Shown here one piece after another: positions 859-37,010 of a stretch of 64,000 bases of DNA. The notes beneath the pieces were generated by a model. It was not told the DNA's origin. It did not search any database and worked only from the letters and a program-made list of their open reading frames with translations. Each line of letters starts with the position of its first letter. Position 1 is the stretch's first letter. The stretch is from an uncultured Clostridia bacterium (GTDB lineage Bacteria; Bacillota; Clostridia; TANB77; CAG-508): NCBI GenBank assembly GCA_947625835.1, contig CANQPY010000001.1, positions 115,981 through 179,980 on the forward strand, written 5' to 3'. A program made the translations under genes and the position numbers.

Positions 859-916
859 ATAATACTCAAATACCTCACTTAAATACTAGAAAGAAAGGGA
901 TCGACTATGAAAATAG

Positions 917-945
917 TTGATTCCTTTCTTTATCTGCTATATAAT
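917..945 (+). promoter_or_regulatory. early promoter cassette (TTGATT-17-TATAAT)
   Basis: AAAATAG-TTGATT, 17 nt, TATAAT, then ..AGAGAAATAAGTGAGGT leader and ATG 976. Confidence 0.75.
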
Positions 946-975
946 ATTTGCAGAGAAATAAGTGAGGTGAATGAT

Positions 976-1944: not shown

Positions 1945-1954
1945 GGTAAACTAT

Positions 1955-2200
1955 ATGATTAAGATTCAAGAATGTTATGAAATTGAAGATGGTGAAGAGT
2001 ATGAAATTCTTCATAGATACCTTCCCCATGAAGATATTCTAAAATTTGCTGATTGGTGCAAATTTTATAAAGATAGAGGACAAAAAATTACAGAAATCAA
2101 AAGAGAGAATAATGAGCTTACGATTTCTTTTGGAAATGTGGGAGATGTTGCTTTTGATATTCTTGCATTTGACATTAAACCCAGAATTGTAAGGTGGTAA
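1955..2200 (+). CDS. hypothetical protein
   Basis: ORF 1859..2200 trimmed to ATG 1955 after GGTGAGGTAA. Confidence 0.7.
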   Translation: MIKIQECYEIEDGEEYEILHRYLPHEDILKFADWCKFYKDRGQKITEIKRENNELTISFGNVGDVAFDILAFDIKPRIVRW

Positions 2201-5116: not shown

Positions 5117-5165
5117 TTTGTGGGATATTAAGTATCCTGGGATAGCAACCCTTAACAGCTAATCA

Positions 5166-5453
5166 ATATAAATTATATATTGGGACTAATCTGCGGACGA
5201 AAGTCTTTGGATTAAACAACACAGAAACGAAAACTGTGGAGATTGGGGGTTGGCAGAATCGTAACAAGGCTGCCATATATGTAGGGAAATTAGTCGGGGA
5301 AACCGAATGATGCCCGCGAAATGCCATTGAAAAAAATGGTTCCGTAGTGTAGAAACATTACCGTTGGCGTTGAAGACCGAGTTAAACGGCGGGGCTAGAA
5401 CGTGGTTAAAAAGGCGCTGAGAAGGGCGCGTACCCCAAATATATAATTTATAT
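5166..5453 (+). ncRNA. unassigned structured RNA (~288 nt) closed by a long terminal helix
   Basis: ATATAAATTATATATTGGG (5166-84) pairs with CCCCAAATATATAATTTATAT (5433-53). No plausible + strand ORF. Internal hairpins: GAC-GAAA-GTC, CACAG/CTGTG, TGGCAG/CTGCCA, CGG-GGAAA-CCG, CCATT/AATGG. Confidence 0.5.
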
Positions 5454-7367: not shown

Positions 7368-7443
7368 GGGGGAATAGCTCAGTTGGTAGAGCGCCTGCCC
7401 TGCAAGCAGGAGGTCGTGCGTTCGAATCGCATTTCTTCCACCA
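7368..7443 (+). tRNA. tRNA-Ala(UGC), C32-C33 loop
   Basis: Acceptor GGGGGAA/TTCTTCC, stem CCTGC/GCAGG, loop CCTGCAA, T-arm GTGCG-TTCGAAT-CGCAT, CCA. Confidence 0.85.
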
Positions 7444-7445
7444 AA

Positions 7446-7538
7446 AATTACTTTCCCTTATAATTTGCGGGGTAGCTTAATCTTCATAGAGCGTCGTCAT
7501 CCCGGTATGAAATCCGGGCCCCGCAAGGGAAAGTAATT
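7446..7538 (+). ncRNA. anticodon-less tRNA-like RNA enclosed by a 14-bp stem (Y-RNA/YrlA-like architecture), copy 1
   Basis: AATTACTTTCCCTT (7446-59) pairs with AAGGGAAAGTAATT (7525-38). 58-nt core GCGGGG..CCCCGC has the hairpin CCCGG-N8-CCGGG and no anticodon arm. Confidence 0.55.
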
Positions 7539-7551
7539 ATAATATGATCAT

Positions 7552-7806
7552 ATAGTTTACTGAGCTATTGGTACTTACTTCTTATTTAATTATCATGGAA
7601 AATTAGCATAGTACTAAAATATATTGTAAACTATTTGAATTTTTATTTACCTCACAGCTAGTAGTCCTTACTTCGCTTATAGCAACAATCTTTTAAATTG
7701 TAACTAGGACTACAATAAGAACATTTTTTATCTCAAAGCTATTGTGGCTTACTTCTAACATAATCGCATTTAAAATTATTATAGAGTCACAAAATATTCT
7801 TTGAGA
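7552..7806 (+). repeat. three long imperfect hairpins sharing the motif AGCTAnTnGTnCTTACTTC
   Basis: Motif at 7563-81, 7656-74, 7737-55. Stems ATAGTTTAC/GTAAACTAT, GTAGTCCT/AGGACTAC, TCTCAAAG/CTTTGAGA. Confidence 0.6.
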
Positions 7807-7825
7807 TTTTTTTTCTCATATCAAA

Positions 7826-9931
7826 ATGGAGGCAGATATGGAAGATCTTTATAAAAATTACTTGTTCAGTAAGGGATTTCTAGTTAGTGATCCTAAGGGA
7901 TCTCATGAACCCCAAGATGTTTTCAGTTCCCTAATTGGTCTTGGTAAACTATTTGGTATTGTAGTTACTAAACAGGCTAATCTTGCAGATGTAGCTATGA
8001 TCCATACTGCAGAGGAATGTTTAGGAGGGATTCATATAGCTGAACCTTTCTATAGAGGCTTTCCAGGCAGTGTTCTTAAATTAACTAGAGATCAATTAAT
8101 TATAGATCAACTTTATTCCTATTTTATTACTTATGGGATGGATGATTTTGAAGGTGAAGGGACAAGATCTATATTTGAGGACCAAATAAAGAGGGATGTA
8201 CTTAATGAAAAGACAGACCCTAAATATTTTGAAATTTTAACGGAAGAACAGGCATTTGAAAAGCTTGATAGTTATGTTGATGATCTTTTACTATCTACAA
8301 GACCTCTTAATGCTACCCAGTACAATCTAGTGAAAACCGTGGTTAACAGAAATATGGACCTCAATATAAAGTCTTTTAAAATTGCCAGTAAGAATACTGC
8401 AATAAAATTGCTAGTTGATACTAGATTAGAGTTATTTGCTGAGAGATTTCTTACTCTTCCTGACACTATTAAAGTTGTTGAGGAACTACTTAATACCCGT
8501 TATCCTGATCAAAAAATTAATAAACTTAACCTTACAAATAAGGATAGAAAGTTTGTTGGATGCTTGATCTTTGTTCTTACTCGTAAGGCTACAGAAAACC
8601 AGATGAGGGAATGTCTTGAGAAGAGAAAGATATGGAAGGGACTTCTCCATCATATTCATCTTAATCCTAGAAATCCTCGTGCACCTAGAAATAAGAATGA
8701 GGAAACATTTATCAAGATGATTTTTGATGATAGCCAACGCTCATGTTTGTCTTCTGTAGAATATTATATTAGCACTGGAAAAATTCACCAAGCTTGTGAT
8801 GTTTTAAAAACTACAAAAGGTGCTACTGCAGTTCTTAGAAATATGAATTATCTTCTTAGTAGATGTAAGACAGATGAAGATAAAGATTATGTAATAGAAA
8901 GTGCGTTTGAATCAAATTCCCCCATTGTTCTTATTCAGCAATTGTACAATTATTATAATTACGATACTGATAATAATGATTGCAGAACATTCAAATTTAC
9001 TAAGAATAATCTCTTTGTAGTTCATAAAGAAACAGCAGAGGAAAATTCAAGAAGAAAGTCATATATTACAGCTAAAGATAAGGAAAAGATAGCTCTTAAA
9101 CTTGAAAATAAACTCCAAGATGTTCTTAAGAACAGATTAGGTAAAGTTTATATAGATCCAGATATGGTCAATATTGCAGTTCCTATTCAAGAGACTACAG
9201 GCAATTCAGGTTATGGAGTACTTACTAGAGGAAGTAGAATTCCCCTTGATAGTAGAATAGTTAGATTGTTTACATATTGGGAAAAGGTAAACGATATTGA
9301 CTTATCAGCTATTGCCATAATGAATGATGGGAAGGCAACAGAATTTTCTTGGAGAACATTTGCGTCTATTCAAAACAACATTATTTGTTTCTCTGGAGAC
9401 CAAACAAGAGGCTATAATGGGGGTTCTGAATATATTGATGTAGATGTTGATAATTTCAAAGCCTACTATCCTGATGCTAAATATCTAATAGTTTGTGATA
9501 ACGTATTCTCAGGTGTTCCATTTGATTCTTGTGAATGTGCAGCTGGGTATATGGTACGCCAAGAAGTAAATAGTGGAGAAGTATTTGAGCCTAAGACAGT
9601 TAAAACACTGTTTTCAGTTAAAGGTAATTCAACTTTCTCCTACTTATTTGCAATTGATTTAGATACCAAAGAAATGGTATGGCTAAATGTAATGAGGGAT
9701 AGTAATGAAACTGTAGCTGGGACTACTGACCTTAAATTCCTTATTCCTTATATTGAATCTGTAAATGCTCTTAATTTGTATAAATTATTTACTTATTTAG
9801 CTACAGAAGTTGTAGATAATATGGGGGATGCAGATGTAATTGTGACAGACAAAGCACTAAAAGGTTTTGGGGATTGTCAAACACTTATTCATAGTAATGA
9901 TATTGAAAAAATCATGAAGCTAATTAACTAA
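7826..9931 (+). CDS. 701-aa protein: helical N-terminal region + C-terminal TerD-like domain (possible divergent Ro/TROVE-like protein)
   Basis: ORF track (alternative in-frame ATG 7838 after GGAGG). C-terminus NDIDLSAIAIMNDGK..FSGDQTRGYNGGSEYIDVDVD..YLIVCDNVF fits the TerD pattern. RKIWKGLLHHIHLNPRN weakly resembles Ro60 GWSHKDLLRLSHLKP. Confidence 0.85.
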   Translation: MEADMEDLYKNYLFSKGFLVSDPKGSHEPQDVFSSLIGLGKLFGIVVTKQANLADVAMIHTAEECLGGIHIAEPFYRGFPGSVLKLTRDQLIIDQLYSYFITYGMDDFEGEGTRSIFEDQIKRDVLNEKTDPKYFEILTEEQAFEKLDSYVDDLLLSTRPLNATQYNLVKTVVNRNMDLNIKSFKIASKNTAIKLLVDTRLELFAERFLTLPDTIKVVEELLNTRYPDQKINKLNLTNKDRKFVGCLIFVLTRKATENQMRECLEKRKIWKGLLHHIHLNPRNPRAPRNKNEETFIKMIFDDSQRSCLSSVEYYISTGKIHQACDVLKTTKGATAVLRNMNYLLSRCKTDEDKDYVIESAFESNSPIVLIQQLYNYYNYDTDNNDCRTFKFTKNNLFVVHKETAEENSRRKSYITAKDKEKIALKLENKLQDVLKNRLGKVYIDPDMVNIAVPIQETTGNSGYGVLTRGSRIPLDSRIVRLFTYWEKVNDIDLSAIAIMNDGKATEFSWRTFASIQNNIICFSGDQTRGYNGGSEYIDVDVDNFKAYYPDAKYLIVCDNVFSGVPFDSCECAAGYMVRQEVNSGEVFEPKTVKTLFSVKGNSTFSYLFAIDLDTKEMVWLNVMRDSNETVAGTTDLKFLIPYIESVNALNLYKLFTYLATEVVDNMGDADVIVTDKALKGFGDCQTLIHSNDIEKIMKLIN

Positions 9932-29901: not shown

Positions 29902-30132
29902 ATGCTTAACAGAACTACACAGTTTGAAGATATTTTTATTATGTGGGACCCAGATATTTTTGATACTTCCATGACCTGGAAAGGGGTTGTAAATTATAAG
30001 AAACAAAAAGGGATGTCTCCCAAGGGCTGTGTTGTGCTAACCATGGAAGAATATCAAGCAGTTATGGAGCTGATTGATGAAGTTAAATGGCAAGCATTTG
30101 ATGCTGGGATTAAAGAAGGACAAGGCGATTAA
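29902..30132 (+). CDS. hypothetical protein
   Basis: ORF 29887..30132 trimmed to ATG 29902 after GAGTGAGG. Confidence 0.75.
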   Translation: MLNRTTQFEDIFIMWDPDIFDTSMTWKGVVNYKKQKGMSPKGCVVLTMEEYQAVMELIDEVKWQAFDAGIKEGQGD

Positions 30133-30133
30133 G

Positions 30134-31117
30134 ATGCAATATATTTATGTAATGGTTGGGCTTCCCGGAAGTGGTAAGAGTACGCTTACCAAGGAAATTT
30201 TGAAATTTCAACATTCTAATTTTGGGGTTGCAGTGGTCTCCTCAGATATGATTAGAGAAGAATTGACTGGGGATGAGGGTAATCAGGAACATAATGAAGA
30301 AGTTTTTAAACTTTATTATGATACCTTTAAGGGGCATCTTAGGGCAGGGCGCGATGTTGTTCTTGATGCAACCAACATTAATATCAAGGCAAGAAAGCAG
30401 GTCTTTATGCATTTGAACGAATATTTTAAAGACACTGAAAACTATAATGTACATAATCAGTCTCGTCAGGATTTCAAAATTATTGCTTGTGTACTACCCA
30501 CGTCTTTCTGGGAATGTGTAAGAAGGGATAGCCTTCGTAAGAGATCTGTGGGCGAAGATGTAATTCGTAAGATTATGAGTAACTTTCAATTTCCCCAGAA
30601 ATACGAAGGGTTTGATGAGATCTTTATTGAAGGGTATATGAGCGCCAATATGGGCCTTTATGACCAATATAAGGCGCAAGCATTTATGGATAAAATGTCC
30701 ACGTTTGACCAAAAGAATCCCCATCACAAATTTACCCTTCTCAAACATAGTACGGCGCTTGAAGCACTTTGTATGAATGATCCTGTTATGAAAGTTGCAG
30801 GTCTTTGGCATGATGTAGGTAAATTATTTACGCAACAAATTGATGAAAATGGGGTTGCGCATTATTATGGGCATGATTCTGTAGGTACGTATTTTCTCCT
30901 TGATAATTTGAATGTTTTTGGGCTTAGCAATTGGAATAATATTTTTGAAGTTTTATTTTATATTAATTTTCATATGAAAGCTCATAAAGACCTAAGAAAC
31001 CCCAAAGCCGAAAGAAAATATAGGAATTTGTTTGGTAATAATAGGTATGATAGATTGATTGATTTTGCAAATAAGGATATGGTTGCCTCTGGAATGTTTG
31101 AGGAATATAAGAATTAA
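30134..31117 (+). CDS. P-loop polynucleotide-kinase-like domain fused to an HD phosphohydrolase domain
   Basis: ORF 30074..31117 trimmed to ATG 30134. VMVGLPGSGKSTL..SSDMIREE..VVLDATN. C-terminal LKHS..GLWHDVGK..YYGHDSVG..HMKAH. Confidence 0.75.
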   Translation: MQYIYVMVGLPGSGKSTLTKEILKFQHSNFGVAVVSSDMIREELTGDEGNQEHNEEVFKLYYDTFKGHLRAGRDVVLDATNINIKARKQVFMHLNEYFKDTENYNVHNQSRQDFKIIACVLPTSFWECVRRDSLRKRSVGEDVIRKIMSNFQFPQKYEGFDEIFIEGYMSANMGLYDQYKAQAFMDKMSTFDQKNPHHKFTLLKHSTALEALCMNDPVMKVAGLWHDVGKLFTQQIDENGVAHYYGHDSVGTYFLLDNLNVFGLSNWNNIFEVLFYINFHMKAHKDLRNPKAERKYRNLFGNNRYDRLIDFANKDMVASGMFEEYKN

Positions 31118-35255: not shown

Positions 35256-36488
35256 ATGAAGCTTTCAAATAACATCAAAAAGATTTTTAAGCTTTTCCAA
35301 CAATTTAATAAGCAAATCTACCTTGTTGGTGGTTGTGTAAGAGATATTGTAATGGGGAATACTCCTCATGATTATGATTTTACTACAAATGCAACTCCTG
35401 ATGAAATGAAAGAGATTGCTAAAAGTGCAAATATTGAAATTATTCCTACTGGCGAAAAATATGGTACTCTTACTTTTCATATTGATAATGAATTTTATGA
35501 GATCACAACATTCAGATCCGATGGAAATTATAGTGATGGAAGAAGACCAGATGAAGTTGTTTTTTCTAAAGAGTTGAGGGATGATCTTTGTAGAAGAGAT
35601 TTTACTTTTAATTCCATGTGTTTTTCCTTTGATGAGAAAAATAATGGGGTTAAGTTAATTGATATCTATAATGGTAGGAAAGACATTGAAAGTGGGGTTG
35701 TAAATACCATTGGTAAAGCAGAGGATAGATTTAATGAAGATGCATTGAGAATTCTTAGAGCAATTAGATTTGCTTATAAATTTGGGTTTAATCTTTCCTT
35801 AGATATTAGAAGAGCAATTTCCAAGCAGGTAAATCTTCTTAATAATGTTTCTATGGAAAGGATTAGAGAGGAAATTTTCAAGATCCTAGAATACTATAAG
35901 CCCAGTGAAATCAATGATAAATCATTGCAAATTGTTCTTAATAAGATTTTGGGTGGTTCTAATATTGATTTTATAGATGAATTTGGTGAAAATATCCTTA
36001 TTGAAACTAGATTGCTTTATGTTTTAAATTTTAAATTGAATAGAGAAGAAATTAATAATAAGTTGGTTGAATTGAAATGCAGTAATAAATTTATTAAAGA
36101 TTCTCTTACAATTTATGACTGTTTTAAATGCCTTGAATATTATAAAAAACAAGAGGATTTGAGATTTGCCTTTAAGAAATGTTTGAATAGGTGTAATAAA
36201 GATTTTAATCTTTTTACCCAGTCCCTTATTTTGTTTATTAATAATAATATTGAATTTCTCTTTGATTATGAAGATCTTATTAGATTGGGCCAAACCATTT
36301 TGGAAAATAATGAACCAATCACCCTTGCAGATCTTGTAATTAATGGGGATGACCTTAATGGTTGGGGGATTAAAGGAAAGAAATGTGGGGAATTGCTTGA
36401 GACAATCCAGGAAAAAGTTTGGTTGGATCCTGCATTTAATAGTAAAGAAACAATTAAAGAATTTGTTAAGGTTAAAGCTACCTGTTAA
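35256..36488 (+). CDS. cca: tRNA nucleotidyltransferase (CCA-adding enzyme)
   Basis: LVGGCVRDIVMGNTPHDYDFTT, ..GTLTF..EITTFR, RRDFTFNS, ALRILRAIRFA. Confidence 0.9.
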   Translation: MKLSNNIKKIFKLFQQFNKQIYLVGGCVRDIVMGNTPHDYDFTTNATPDEMKEIAKSANIEIIPTGEKYGTLTFHIDNEFYEITTFRSDGNYSDGRRPDEVVFSKELRDDLCRRDFTFNSMCFSFDEKNNGVKLIDIYNGRKDIESGVVNTIGKAEDRFNEDALRILRAIRFAYKFGFNLSLDIRRAISKQVNLLNNVSMERIREEIFKILEYYKPSEINDKSLQIVLNKILGGSNIDFIDEFGENILIETRLLYVLNFKLNREEINNKLVELKCSNKFIKDSLTIYDCFKCLEYYKKQEDLRFAFKKCLNRCNKDFNLFTQSLILFINNNIEFLFDYEDLIRLGQTILENNEPITLADLVINGDDLNGWGIKGKKCGELLETIQEKVWLDPAFNSKETIKEFVKVKATC

Positions 36489-36716: not shown

Positions 36717-36764
36717 AATAGAAAAAATAAACAATTCTTCAATAAATAAAGAAGAGTAAAGGAT

Positions 36765-37010
36765 GAGTTTTTAACTTTAATTGAAAAAAGTTAAAAACTC
36801 ATATACACATACACATATATATATATACGACGTTATGATATATATTTAGATATGTCTAATGATATATATATATATCTAGATATATATATCATAATATGTC
36901 TGACGATATATATCTGACGACATGTCTGCTAACATTTTCGATACTTAAGTTTTCGATGCTAAAAACTTAAGTACATAGGTTTTTGATGCTAAAAATTTTA
37001 TATCTAAAAT
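36765..37010. repeat. AT-repeat, palindrome and iteron region (origin, packaging or regulatory candidate)
   Basis: 13-bp hairpin GAGTTTTTAACTT/AAGTTAAAAACTC. (TA)n tracts. Palindrome ATGATATATATATATAT-CTAG-ATATATATATCAT (36859-92). ATGTCT and TCTGACGA repeats. TTTTyGATGCTAAAAA repeated 2-3 times. Confidence 0.6.

What the first reader, a model, noticed from the sequence alone, without database searches (positions are those of the whole stretch)
7446..9931. Anticodon-less tRNA-like RNA with a closing stem beside a TerD-domain protein carrying a Ro60-like motif
Seen in the RNA:
- A perfect 14-bp helix (7446-59/7525-38) encloses a 58-nt core.
- The core has a 6-bp acceptor-type stem GCGGGG/CCCCGC, a D-like region, and a hairpin CCCGG-N8-CCGGG. 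It has no anticodon arm.

Seen in the protein (701-aa ORF, 290 nt downstream):
- The C-terminal part of the protein follows the TerD pattern closely (D-I-D-L-S-A..GK..SGD.T.G..GG.E.I.V.V...Y.IV...F).
- The N-terminal two-thirds looks all-helical and contains RKIWKGLLHHIHLNPRN. This is only a weak match to the Ro60/TROVE signature GWSHKDLLRLSHLKP.

Established knowledge:
- Bacterial Ro60 (Rsr) genes lie next to YrlA Y RNAs.
- YrlA has a tRNA-mimicking module without an anticodon.
- Its paired termini form the Ro-binding stem.

Inference: this may be a divergent Ro-Y-RNA-like RNP in which a TerD-like domain replaces the usual vWA domain. As far as I know that combination has not been described.
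Basis: partly seen in the sequence, partly recalled or inferred. Interest (0 to 1): 0.8.

Follow-up and report, generated by a model that had tools for sequence, protein, structure and literature searches.

The report
Y-RNA-like locus lacking Ro60
The flagged tRNA-like RNA is real but is an odd member of a phage tRNA cluster, and the neighbouring protein is not Ro60; however, its gene is always preceded by small structured RNAs that in relatives are true Y-RNA (YrlA) look-alikes next to the RNA ligase RtcB, which points to an undescribed Ro-like RNA-protein system.

Summary
The RNA at 7446-7538 exists as described: a 14-bp closing helix, a 6-7-bp acceptor-type stem, a D-like arm, one hairpin and no anticodon arm. 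It has a paralogue at 23012-23107 and is conserved like a tRNA. It is not a Y RNA. Its topology is the reverse of YrlA, its hairpin is not a T arm, Rfam gives no match, and its distribution does not follow the protein.

The 701-aa protein has a helical N-terminal part and a distantly TerD-like beta-sandwich. No test found TROVE: Pfam on 34 homologues, Foldseek twice, and hhalign against Ro60/Rsr at 0.25% probability.

The RNAs that are conserved with this gene are three ~80-nt stem-loop units in the spacer (7553-7812). These units precede the gene in every relative examined. In six distinct sequences at nine fetched loci, one unit carries a covarying YrlA-type permuted tRNA module (Rfam YrlA, E 5e-10 to 4e-3, all below gathering score). 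In three of four chromosomal lineages RtcB lies within 5 kb, recalling rsr-yrlBA-rtcBA.

The Ro/Y-RNA-like idea is therefore supported in spirit, but for a different RNA and a non-TROVE protein. Binding and expression are untested.

The parts
7368..7443 (+). tRNA-Ala(UGC) with encoded CCA. It ends 2 nt before the flagged RNA.
   Evidence: ARAGORN; Rfam tRNA 66.7 bits
7446..7538 (+). 'A-type' anticodon-arm-less tRNA-derived RNA. Outer helix 7446-59/7525-38; bulge 7460-66; acceptor-type stem 7467-72/7519-24; D-like stem 7475-78/7489-92; 8-nt linker 7493-7500; hairpin 7501-05/7514-18.
   Evidence: Sequence. Fold z = -5.97. 97.9% identical in L001. Recognised at 22 bits (E 4e-3) by a model built only from B-type copies.
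23012..23107 (+). 'B-type' paralogue. 12-bp outer helix 23012-23/23096-107; 5-bp acceptor-type stem 23028-32/23089-93; D-like arm 23035-39/23046-50; mini-hairpin CCGA-GUAA-UCGG at the anticodon position 23051-54/23059-62; 7-bp T-position stem 23068-74/23082-88. It lies just 5' of tRNA-Leu(CAA).
   Evidence: Pattern search. Fold z = -5.26. Orthologues in L002 and L006/L146 are 92.9% paired, with 6 pairs changed on both sides.
7553..7637 (+). Y-RNA-like unit 1: P1, AGCUA, 7-bp P2, UUACUUC loop, P2', AAUAUA, P1', then a U run.
   Evidence: Model R1 57.5 bits; anatomy; U run
7646..7724 (+). Y-RNA-like unit 2
   Evidence: R1 47.1 bits; P2 7/7 paired
7727..7812 (+). Y-RNA-like unit 3. P1 is UCUCAAAG/CUUUGAGA followed by U8. 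It ends 14 nt before the ATG.
   Evidence: R1 63.1 bits
7826..9931 (+). 701-aa protein. N-terminal alpha/beta plus helical region (aa 1-436, nt 7826-9133); TerD-like beta-sandwich (aa 438-640, nt 9137-9745); small C-terminal alpha/beta domain.
   Evidence: ORF. AF2 model. PHROG 33734. NF041916 partial match E 1e-29. Sub-threshold TerD in homologues. At least 512 homologue clusters.

Best explanation
There are two separate things here.

(1) The RNA at 7446-7538 is a tRNA-derived small RNA without an anticodon arm. It belongs to the phage's tRNA array and is one of two paralogues; the other is at 23012-23107. It is most likely transcribed with the tRNAs. The stack of closing helix, acceptor-type stem and hairpin probably serves as a handle for tRNA-processing enzymes. 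This would yield a stable tRNA-body mimic that cannot decode. Its role is unknown; my best guess is a decoy or competitor for a factor that recognises the tRNA body. It is not the conserved partner of the ORF.

(2) The ORF encodes a protein with a helical part and a TerD-like part that is not TROVE. Its conserved RNA neighbours are the three ~80-nt units at 7553-7812. These belong to a new Y-RNA-like family: P1, AGCUA, a 7-bp P2, a loop starting UUACUUY, P2', RAUAUC, P1'. In bacterial relatives and some phage relatives, one unit carries a complete YrlA-type permuted tRNA module in its loop. In two chromosomal relatives RtcB is directly adjacent. Most likely the protein binds the conserved stem module to form a Ro60/Y-RNA-like RNP, and this RNP acts on damaged or misfolded RNA alongside RNA repair enzymes (RtcB in cells; Pnk, Rnl1 and CCA-adding enzyme in these phages).

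Shown: the RNA structures, their covariation, the gene-RNA linkage, the YrlA-type module, the RtcB neighbourhood, and the absence of detectable TROVE.
Inferred: transcription and processing, protein-RNA binding, and the repair role.
For: A and B elements:
- Fold z-scores are -5.97 and -5.26.
- A is 97.9% conserved between the window and L001, against 78% for the spacer.
- B orthologues show 6 pairs changed on both sides and are 92.9% paired, against 31-45% when the partners are slid.
- A model built from B alone recovers A.
- Both elements sit tightly packed among tRNAs on the tRNA strand.
- The phage encodes a CCA-adding enzyme (35256-36488) and a Pnk-like kinase (30074-31117).

Units:
- P2 is 95.8% paired, with 59 cells changed on both sides and 0 of 500 shuffles reaching this.
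- 62 of 63 model hits in 493 kb (both strands) lie within about 550 nt upstream of the gene on the same strand. This includes loci not used to build the model.
- In an RNA-first scan of IMG/VR, 11 of 15 pattern hits have the gene immediately downstream.

YrlA-type module:
- Rfam YrlA hits directly upstream of the gene in L164, L165, L170, L166, L167, L128 and L169, and upstream of RtcB in L168. E-values run from 5e-10 to 4e-3.
- Neither ARAGORN nor the Rfam tRNA model calls a tRNA at those positions.
- Across five distinct sequences the structure is 98.5% paired. 16 of 26 pairs change on both sides, including 5 of 6 in the closed acceptor stem.

RtcB: adjacent in L166 and L168, and 4.4 kb upstream in L164. 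Rnl1 lies 1 kb downstream in L002 and L006.
Against: - There are no expression or binding data of any kind.
- All YrlA hits (32-49 bits) are below Rfam's gathering score of 69, and the similarity is confined to the tRNA-like module.
- The window's own three units carry no tRNA-like module, and the window has no YrlA hit at E<=0.5 and no RtcB.
- The units lie just 5' of the ORF, and 18 of 41 are followed by a U run against a 9% background. This fits a cis-acting attenuator or riboswitch equally well.
- The protein shows no similarity to any known RNA-binding fold.
- The A/B family was found in only four related phage lineages, and its hairpin is not a T loop. A tRNA-like 3D shape is therefore uncertain.
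Confidence: 0.55

Rival explanations
1. One reading: the RNA at 7446-7538 is a YrlA-like Y RNA whose closing stem binds a divergent TROVE (Ro60) domain in the N-terminal two-thirds of the ORF product.
For: It resembles a tRNA without an anticodon arm and has paired termini. It lies 288 nt upstream of the ORF. The protein has a W..GLLHHIH string and a helical region.
Against: - The topology is the opposite of YrlA, and there is no GNCGAA motif or canonical T loop.
- Rfam gives no hit at E<=10.
- The element is absent next to the gene in L002, L003 and L006, and in all 18 IMG/VR loci. A paralogue lies 15 kb away.
- Pfam TROVE is absent in 34 homologues.
- Foldseek with the full-length protein and with residues 1-436 finds no Ro60 or Rsr in the 50 listed matches and nothing at E<1e-3.
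- hhalign against a 17-sequence TROVE alignment gives probability 0.25%.
Confidence: 0.04
2. The three units are a cis-acting leader and not trans-acting Y-like RNAs. They would be a tandem transcription attenuator or riboswitch array controlling the ORF, with a ligand or the protein itself stabilising P1, which doubles as a terminator stem.
For: The units always lie 5' of the ORF on the same strand, and the last one ends 27-56 nt before the ATG. In the window, L002 and L003 all nine units are followed by a U5+ run. Overall 18 of 41 are, against a 9% background. Tandem copies are typical of cooperative regulators.
Against: - In relatives one unit carries a full YrlA-type tRNA mimic, which no known attenuator needs.
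- In L168 a YrlA-like unit and a second unit precede RtcB instead of the TerD-like gene.
- In L164 a separate canonical terminator follows the second unit, as expected for a stand-alone sRNA gene.
- Salmonella Y RNAs are likewise encoded inside the rsr-rtcBA operon. This point rests on my own knowledge and on papers listed that I did not read.
- The two readings do not exclude each other.
Confidence: 0.25
3. The 7446-7538 element and its paralogue are decaying tRNA pseudogenes or recombination scars of a dynamic tRNA array and have no function of their own.
For: - The array does contain relics, such as an orphan tRNA-Phe 3' fragment at about 22725-22755.
- The family is restricted to four related lineages.
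- There is no CCA and no canonical T loop.
- The A copy is a lineage-specific insertion.
Against: - A's core is identical between the window and L001 while the adjacent spacer is 78% identical.
- B keeps all five helices through changes on both sides across three lineages whose protein is only about 61-63% identical.
- The closing helices are long (12-14 bp) and differ in sequence between A and B, yet both pair. A decaying gene would not be expected to keep this.
Confidence: 0.15

Closest known systems
Bacterial Ro60 (Rsr) with YrlA/YrlB Y RNAs and RtcB (the rsr-yrlBA-rtcBA type locus)
   Same: - One to several small structured RNAs are encoded next to a ~60-80 kDa protein gene and, in cellular genomes, next to RtcB.
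- One RNA carries a permuted tRNA mimic in the order T arm, closed acceptor stem, D arm, opening into a long stem. It has a canonical GGUUCGAnUCC T loop and a G18G19 D loop.
- A second, shorter RNA in L166 keeps only a T-arm-like hairpin, as reported for YrlB.
- The system also occurs in phages.
   Different: - The protein has no detectable TROVE or vWA domain. It combines a novel helical region with a TerD-like beta-sandwich.
- The stem module carries AGCUA/UUACUUC/RAUAUC in place of GNCGAAN0-1G.
- There are up to 5-6 tandem copies.
- In this window the units have lost the tRNA module altogether.
Canonical tRNA, and tRNA-like stable RNAs of phage tRNA clusters (T4 species 1 and 2 RNAs; from my own knowledge, not tested here)
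   Same: The A and B elements sit in register within a tRNA array on the tRNA strand. Their 5' halves match the acceptor and D-arm consensus (UAGCU..A..AGAGC). The acceptor-type stem plus the adjoining hairpin stem totals 12 bp, as in a tRNA (7+5 in A, 5+7 in B).
   Different: They have no anticodon arm (A) or only a 4-bp GUAA hairpin (B), no T-loop consensus and no encoded CCA. The termini are locked in a 12-14-bp helix. ARAGORN does not call them, and the Rfam tRNA model does not call A; for B, one search reported no tRNA-family hit over 22690-23111, which stops 4 nt past its core.
TerD domain proteins (PF02342) and the NF041916 MXAN_6230/SCO0854 RING-domain family
   Same: There is a beta-sandwich at aa 438-640 with the D-I-D-L-S ... 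SGD.T.G..GGSE pattern. TerD is hit at sub-threshold level over the matching stretch in P0004. The region 306-629 aligns to the middle of NF041916 at E 1e-29. One homologue is named 'TerD family protein' by NCBI, and the best BFVD match is named 'tellurium resistant like'.
   Different: The hit is below Pfam's cut-off, and this protein itself gives no hit at all. The acidic Ca-binding GDGDDE motif is replaced. There is no RING region, and the score of 103 bits falls far short of the 600-bit cut-off. There is no ter operon context.

Membership tests
YrlA / bacterial Y RNA (applied to the flagged RNA 7446-7538) | [quoted passage not shown] | tested here: not met
   Here the termini extend the acceptor-type stem, and the anticodon position is an 8-nt linker. 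Definition taken from PMC4201824.
YrlA / bacterial Y RNA (applied to the flagged RNA 7446-7538) | Canonical T arm and D arm with tRNA tertiary-pair nucleotides | tested here: not met
   The D-arm sequence is tRNA-like but lacks G18G19. The hairpin loop UAUGAAAU is 8 nt and has no GTTCRANYC.
YrlA / bacterial Y RNA (applied to the flagged RNA 7446-7538) | Match to the Rfam YrlA / Y RNA covariance models, and a GNCGAAN0-1G motif in the terminal stem | tested here: not met
   No such hit at E<=10 in 7420-7830 or at E<=0.5 in the whole window. There is no GNCGAA in the sequence.
YrlA / bacterial Y RNA (applied to the flagged RNA 7446-7538) | Encoded next to a TROVE-domain Ro60 orthologue | tested here: not met
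   No TROVE in the ORF or in 52 other window ORFs. hhalign against TROVE gives probability 0.25%.
YrlA-type Y RNA (applied to leader units of relatives: L164, L166, L167, L128, L168) | Permuted tRNA module (T arm, closed acceptor stem, D arm) opening into a long terminal stem | tested here: met
   Rfam YrlA at 32-49 bits, E 5e-10 to 4e-3, below the gathering score of 69. 98.5% paired, with 16 pairs changed on both sides. No tRNA is called there.
YrlA-type Y RNA (applied to the window's own units 7553-7812) | Presence of the tRNA-like module | tested here: not met
   The loops are 36-39 nt with no T- or D-arm sequence, and there is no YrlA hit. The window's units share only the stem module with the YrlA-type units.
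Ro60 / TROVE protein | TROVE HEAT-repeat ring (PF05731) followed by a vWA/MIDAS domain | tested here: not met
   - Pfam at E<=1: none in 34 homologues.
- Foldseek against PDB, with the full-length protein and with residues 1-436: no Ro60 or Rsr in the 50 listed matches; best helical matches have E>0.3 and TM<0.2.
- hhalign A1 against A9: E 0.24.
- The C-terminal domain is a beta-sandwich, not the alpha/beta fold of vWA.
Ro60/Y RNA RNP | Physical binding of the protein to the RNA stem | not testable with these tools
   Needs RIP/CLIP, EMSA or a complex structure.
TerD domain (PF02342) | Score above the Pfam gathering threshold; Ca-binding GDN.TG.GDGDDE motif | tested here: inconclusive
   The window protein gives no hit at E<=1. 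P0004 scores 20.9 bits against 25.3, over residues 478-567; 3 of 34 homologues are hit. The motif is degenerate (SGDQTRGYNGGSE). The beta-sandwich is modelled at high confidence.
Canonical tRNA | Cloverleaf with anticodon arm; detection by ARAGORN or Rfam RF00005 | tested here: not met
   ARAGORN calls neither A nor B, and Rfam RF00005 does not call A. For B, no tRNA-family hit was reported over 22690-23111, which stops 4 nt past its core.
tmRNA tRNA-like domain | Acceptor stem plus T arm joined to an mRNA-like tag region | tested here: not met
   ARAGORN finds no tmRNA. The only Rfam hint is a 12-bit permuted-tmRNA match at E 2.3 near B.

The most novel reading that the evidence does not exclude
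The helical/TerD-like protein family (at least 512 clusters; PHROG 33734) is a non-TROVE functional analogue of Ro60. It would bind the AGCUA/UUACUUC stem module of a new Y-RNA subfamily in Lachnospiraceae-type bacteria and their phages. In phage lineages whose units have lost the built-in tRNA mimic, the free-standing tRNA-like RNAs without an anticodon arm (7446-7538 and 23012-23107) would supply that effector-recruiting module as a separate, unpermuted RNA of the same RNP system.
Probability: 0.12. Interest if true: 0.9.

Novelty: new variant of a known kind. Interest (0 to 1): 0.65.

Why it matters
In every Y RNA system I know of, the protein partner is Ro60. A second, unrelated protein scaffold genomically wedded to YrlA-type tRNA mimics and to RtcB would show that the design 'tRNA-mimic RNA plus stem-binding protein' evolved, or was re-used, beyond Ro60.

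It would also give a first functional lead for a large unannotated family: more than 500 protein clusters, PHROG 33734, and the core module of NF041916. And it would tie these RNPs to the contest between phage tRNA arrays with their RNA repair genes and host RNA-damaging defences.

The unit RNA is absent from Rfam 15, so it is a candidate new RNA family with strong covariation.

Separately, the two tRNA-like RNAs without an anticodon arm add a small, testable class of non-decoding tRNA derivatives in phage tRNA clusters.

Tried and rejected
- Rfam at gathering and E-value thresholds on the flagged RNA, the spacer and the whole window gave no family other than tRNAs.
- The loose pattern TAGCTTAA..CCCGCAAG in IMG/VR returned about 120 chance matches and was useless.
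- The specific pattern found nothing in IMG/VR or JGI metagenomes, and only a duplicate of L006 in GTDB genomes.
- blastn and tblastn against GenBank phages found only tRNA matches and eight distant protein hits, all unannotated.
- PADLOC gave no hit.
- PDB sequence searches with the single protein and with the family profile gave nothing.
- The sigma-70 promoter and terminator scan was no better than shuffles.
- A structural scan for other elements with a closing stem and a tRNA-like core, in the window and eight further fetched loci, found none beyond A and B.
- My first tandem-unit pattern had the wrong spacing (N7 in place of N6) and wasted a scan.
- Of the 15 hits from the corrected scan, four were not bona fide arrays: two coding repeats, one exact DNA repeat and one solitary unit.
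- Literature searches for SCO0854/MXAN_6230, for stable RNAs in phage tRNA clusters, and for an RtcB-TerD link found nothing relevant.
- I rejected retron ncRNA (no reverse transcriptase nearby), intrinsic terminator (no U run after the A helix) and a MITE with terminal inverted repeats (B's helix keeps G-U pairs that work only on the + strand RNA).
- UUACUUU occurs in A's 5' arm and resembles the unit signature. It is absent from B and no AGCUA or P2 partner accompanies it, so I treat it as unexplained and possibly coincidental.
Full report
**Setting.** The window is phage-like DNA. All genes lie on the + strand, there are 24 ARAGORN tRNAs and four more Rfam tRNA calls, and it carries homing endonucleases, a holin and a tail fibre gene. 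It also encodes a CCA-adding enzyme (35256-36488) and a Pnk-like kinase (30074-31117). There is no close relative in GenBank phages. Related contigs of 60-140 kb come from ENA and Logan assemblies (sample types not checked), and one is binned into a 'Bacilli' MAG whose isolate name ('Lapin') suggests a rabbit source.

**Checking the RNA observation.**
- The arms form a perfect 14-bp helix, followed by a 7-nt 5' bulge and a 58-nt core.
- The core has GCGGGG/CCCCGC, a D-like arm, an 8-nt linker in place of the anticodon arm, and the hairpin CCCGG-N8-CCGGG.
- The MFE fold reproduces this at -39.7 kcal/mol, z = -5.97.
- The element starts 2 nt after the CCA of tRNA-Ala.
- Two qualifications apply. 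The hairpin loop (UAUGAAAU) is not a T loop, and only the 5' half resembles tRNAs. No CCA is encoded, whereas the neighbouring tRNAs encode it.

**The RNA has a family, and the family does not follow the protein.**
- A second copy ('B-type') lies at 23012-23107, just 5' of tRNA-Leu(CAA). It has a 12-bp closing helix of unrelated sequence and a 4-bp GUAA hairpin at the anticodon position.
- Orthologues of B occur in L002 and in L006/L146. They are 92.9% paired, with six pairs changed on both sides, against 31-45% pairing when the partners are slid.
- A covariance model built from B alone recovers the flagged A copy at 22 bits.
- A is 97.9% identical between the window and L001, with the differences confined to the bulge. 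The adjacent spacer is 78% identical and the ORF DNA 86.7%. The elements are therefore under constraint.
- The A copy exists only in the window and L001. In L003, whose protein is 61% identical, tRNA-Ala is followed directly by the spacer.
- B lies 15 kb from the ORF in the window, 1 kb away in L002 and 4 kb away in L006.
- None of 18 IMG/VR loci carrying the protein has either element, and 11 of them have no tRNA within 10 kb.
- Specific pattern scans of IMG/VR, JGI metagenomes and GTDB genomes added nothing new.

**Why the RNA is not YrlA.** According to PMC4201824, YrlA has three defining features. [quoted passage not shown] Its termini pair at the anticodon-stem position and carry GNCGAAN0-1G. 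It is encoded beside Ro60. The flagged RNA has the opposite topology, no such motif, no T loop, and no Rfam hit at E<=10.

**The protein.**
- Pfam finds nothing in the window protein. PHROG 33734 (unknown function) and a partial match to NCBIfam NF041916 (E 1e-29, far below its cut-off) are the only family hits.
- At least 512 homologue clusters exist, almost all unnamed.
- The AF2 model (pLDDT 81.7, pTM 0.81) has a mixed N-terminal lobe, a helical region at 140-435, a beta-sandwich at 438-640 and a small C-terminal domain.
- TerD is hit only below threshold, in 3 of 34 homologues. In P0004 the hit covers exactly the DIDLS...SGD.T.G stretch. I therefore accept 'distantly TerD-like' but not membership.
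- TROVE was tested in four ways. Pfam on 34 homologues found none. Foldseek against PDB with the full model and with residues 1-436 found no Ro60 or Rsr in the 50 listed matches and nothing at E<1e-3, only generic helical repeats at E>0.3. hhalign of the family against a 17-sequence Ro60/Rsr alignment gave probability 0.25%. The RKIWKGLLHHIH string is not aligned to the TROVE signature.
- None of the 52 other window ORFs scanned is TROVE, vWA or RtcB.

**What is really conserved beside the gene.**
- The 288-nt spacer holds three copies of an ~80-nt unit: P1, (A)GCUA, a 7-bp P2, a loop starting UUACUUY, P2', RAUAUC, P1'.
- Across 24 units P2 is 95.8% paired, with 59 cells changed on both sides and 0 of 500 shuffles reaching this.
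- A model of the unit gives 63 hits in 493 kb searched on both strands. Sixty-two of them lie within about 550 nt upstream of the homologous gene on the same strand, in every locus except the truncated L145, including 37-46%-identical ones not used to build the model.
- Searching IMG/VR from the RNA side, 11 of 15 tandem-pattern hits have the gene immediately downstream. The other four are two coding repeats, one DNA repeat and one solitary unit.
- Rfam 15 has no family for the unit.

**The turn.**
- Homologues also sit in bacterial chromosomes, for example in a 468-kb contig with uvrA, uvrB, an amylase gene and a LexA-like gene.
- There, the loop of the first unit contains a complete permuted tRNA: a T arm with GGUUCGAGUCC, a closed acceptor stem, and a D arm GCUCAAUUGGUAGAGC.
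- Rfam YrlA hits it at 48.6 bits, E 5e-10.
- The same is true upstream of the gene in L166, L167, L170/L165, and the phage loci L128/L169. In L168 the hit lies upstream of RtcB. Scores are 32-48 bits and E runs from 6.5e-8 to 4e-3, always below the gathering score of 69.
- ARAGORN and the Rfam tRNA model call no tRNA at those positions, so these are not tRNA dimers.
- Aligning five distinct sequences gives 98.5% pairing. Sixteen of 26 pairs change on both sides, including 5 of 6 in the closed acceptor stem. All five carry the CAGCUA...UUACUUC...AUAUC stem module.
- The second unit in L166 keeps only a T-arm-like hairpin, as reported for YrlB.
- RtcB lies immediately upstream of the RNAs in L166, flanks them in L168, and is 4.4 kb away in L164. 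In the phage relatives L002 and L006, Rnl1 lies 1 kb downstream.
- This layout parallels rsr-yrlBA-rtcBA, with the TerD-like protein in Ro60's place.
- The searchable literature holds no description of such a link.

**Mechanism and its limits.**
- I infer that the protein binds the conserved stem module of these Y-like RNAs and acts in RNA repair or quality control, with the variable loop (tRNA-like in relatives) recruiting partners. Binding, expression and function are untested.
- A cis-regulatory reading remains viable and is compatible with the first. Eighteen of 41 units are followed by a U5+ run against a 9% background, and the last unit ends 27-56 nt before the ATG.
- In this window the units lack the tRNA module, and no YrlA hit exists at E<=0.5.
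- For the A and B RNAs I infer co-transcription with the tRNAs and recognition by tRNA-processing enzymes. The acceptor-type stem plus the adjoining hairpin stem totals 12 bp in both, as in a tRNA (7+5 in A, 5+7 in B). The phage encodes a CCA-adding enzyme.
- Whether A and B serve the same system as a free-standing tRNA mimic is an open, low-probability possibility.

**Verdict.** The locus is best filed as a new variant of the Ro60/Y-RNA/RtcB theme, and it contains a candidate new RNA family.

Noticed in passing
window 22919-23004: A tRNA-like gene with a long variable arm, a canonical T arm and CCA, but an aberrant anticodon stem-loop (UCUG-UAAAAGUG-CAGA, an 8-nt loop). ARAGORN misses it, and Rfam gives only tRNA-Sec at 27.6 bits, below threshold. 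The stem keeps pairing through a G-C to A-U change in L002.
   Followed up: partly
window 23257-23402 (L002 about 5130-5245; L146 3322-3396): The tRNA-Lys(UUU) gene carries an insertion of about 70 nt in the anticodon loop (about 44 nt in L002, none in L146). This is far too short for a group I intron. It is notable because tRNA-Lys(UUU) is the PrrC target and these phages carry Pnk and Rnl1.
   Followed up: partly
window about 22725-22755: An orphan 3' fragment of a tRNA-Phe (T arm, acceptor 3' strand and CCA) lies beside a different, intact tRNA-Phe at 22623-22701. This shows turnover within the tRNA array.
   Followed up: no
window 36760-36930: A dense cluster of AT-rich palindromes and inverted repeats, including a perfect 16-bp hairpin at 36763-36802. 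It lies between the CCA-adding enzyme gene and the next ORF and could be a replication origin or a regulatory region.
   Followed up: no
window 871-969 and 5146-5252: Other long closing-stem structures lie next to tRNAs: a 19-bp hairpin nested in an 11-bp outer helix after tRNA-Ser, and a 107-nt multi-hairpin element after tRNA-Asp. They are unrelated in sequence to the A/B family.
   Followed up: no
window 35256-36488 and 30074-31117: A phage-encoded CCA-adding enzyme (PolyA_pol head plus tRNA_NucTran2_2) and a Pnk-like P-loop kinase (AAA_33). Relatives L002 and L006 add an Rnl1 RNA ligase 1 kb downstream of the TerD-like gene.
   Followed up: partly
L132 17428-17664: A HEARO RNA (Rfam 122 bits) lies in a phage locus that also carries the TerD-like gene.
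   Followed up: no
L155 about 1950-2100 (- strand): Three exact direct repeats of GGGTTCCCAGCTATCTAACCTTACTTTTT lie upstream of a gene in an unrelated viral contig. They share the GCTA-N6-CTTACTT string of the units but have no P2 partner. This may be a promoter or operator repeat, or a coincidence.
   Followed up: no
L149 4766-4836 (= L129 19395-19465): A solitary Y-like unit with an intact 7-bp P2 lies inside the tRNA array of the L129 phage, about 9 kb from its TerD-like gene and just upstream of a tRNA.
   Followed up: partly
window 7448-7454: The 5' arm of the flagged RNA contains UUACUUU, the signature heptamer of the Y-like units, and AAUAU follows its 3' arm. The B paralogue has neither. 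Unexplained, and possibly coincidence.
   Followed up: partly
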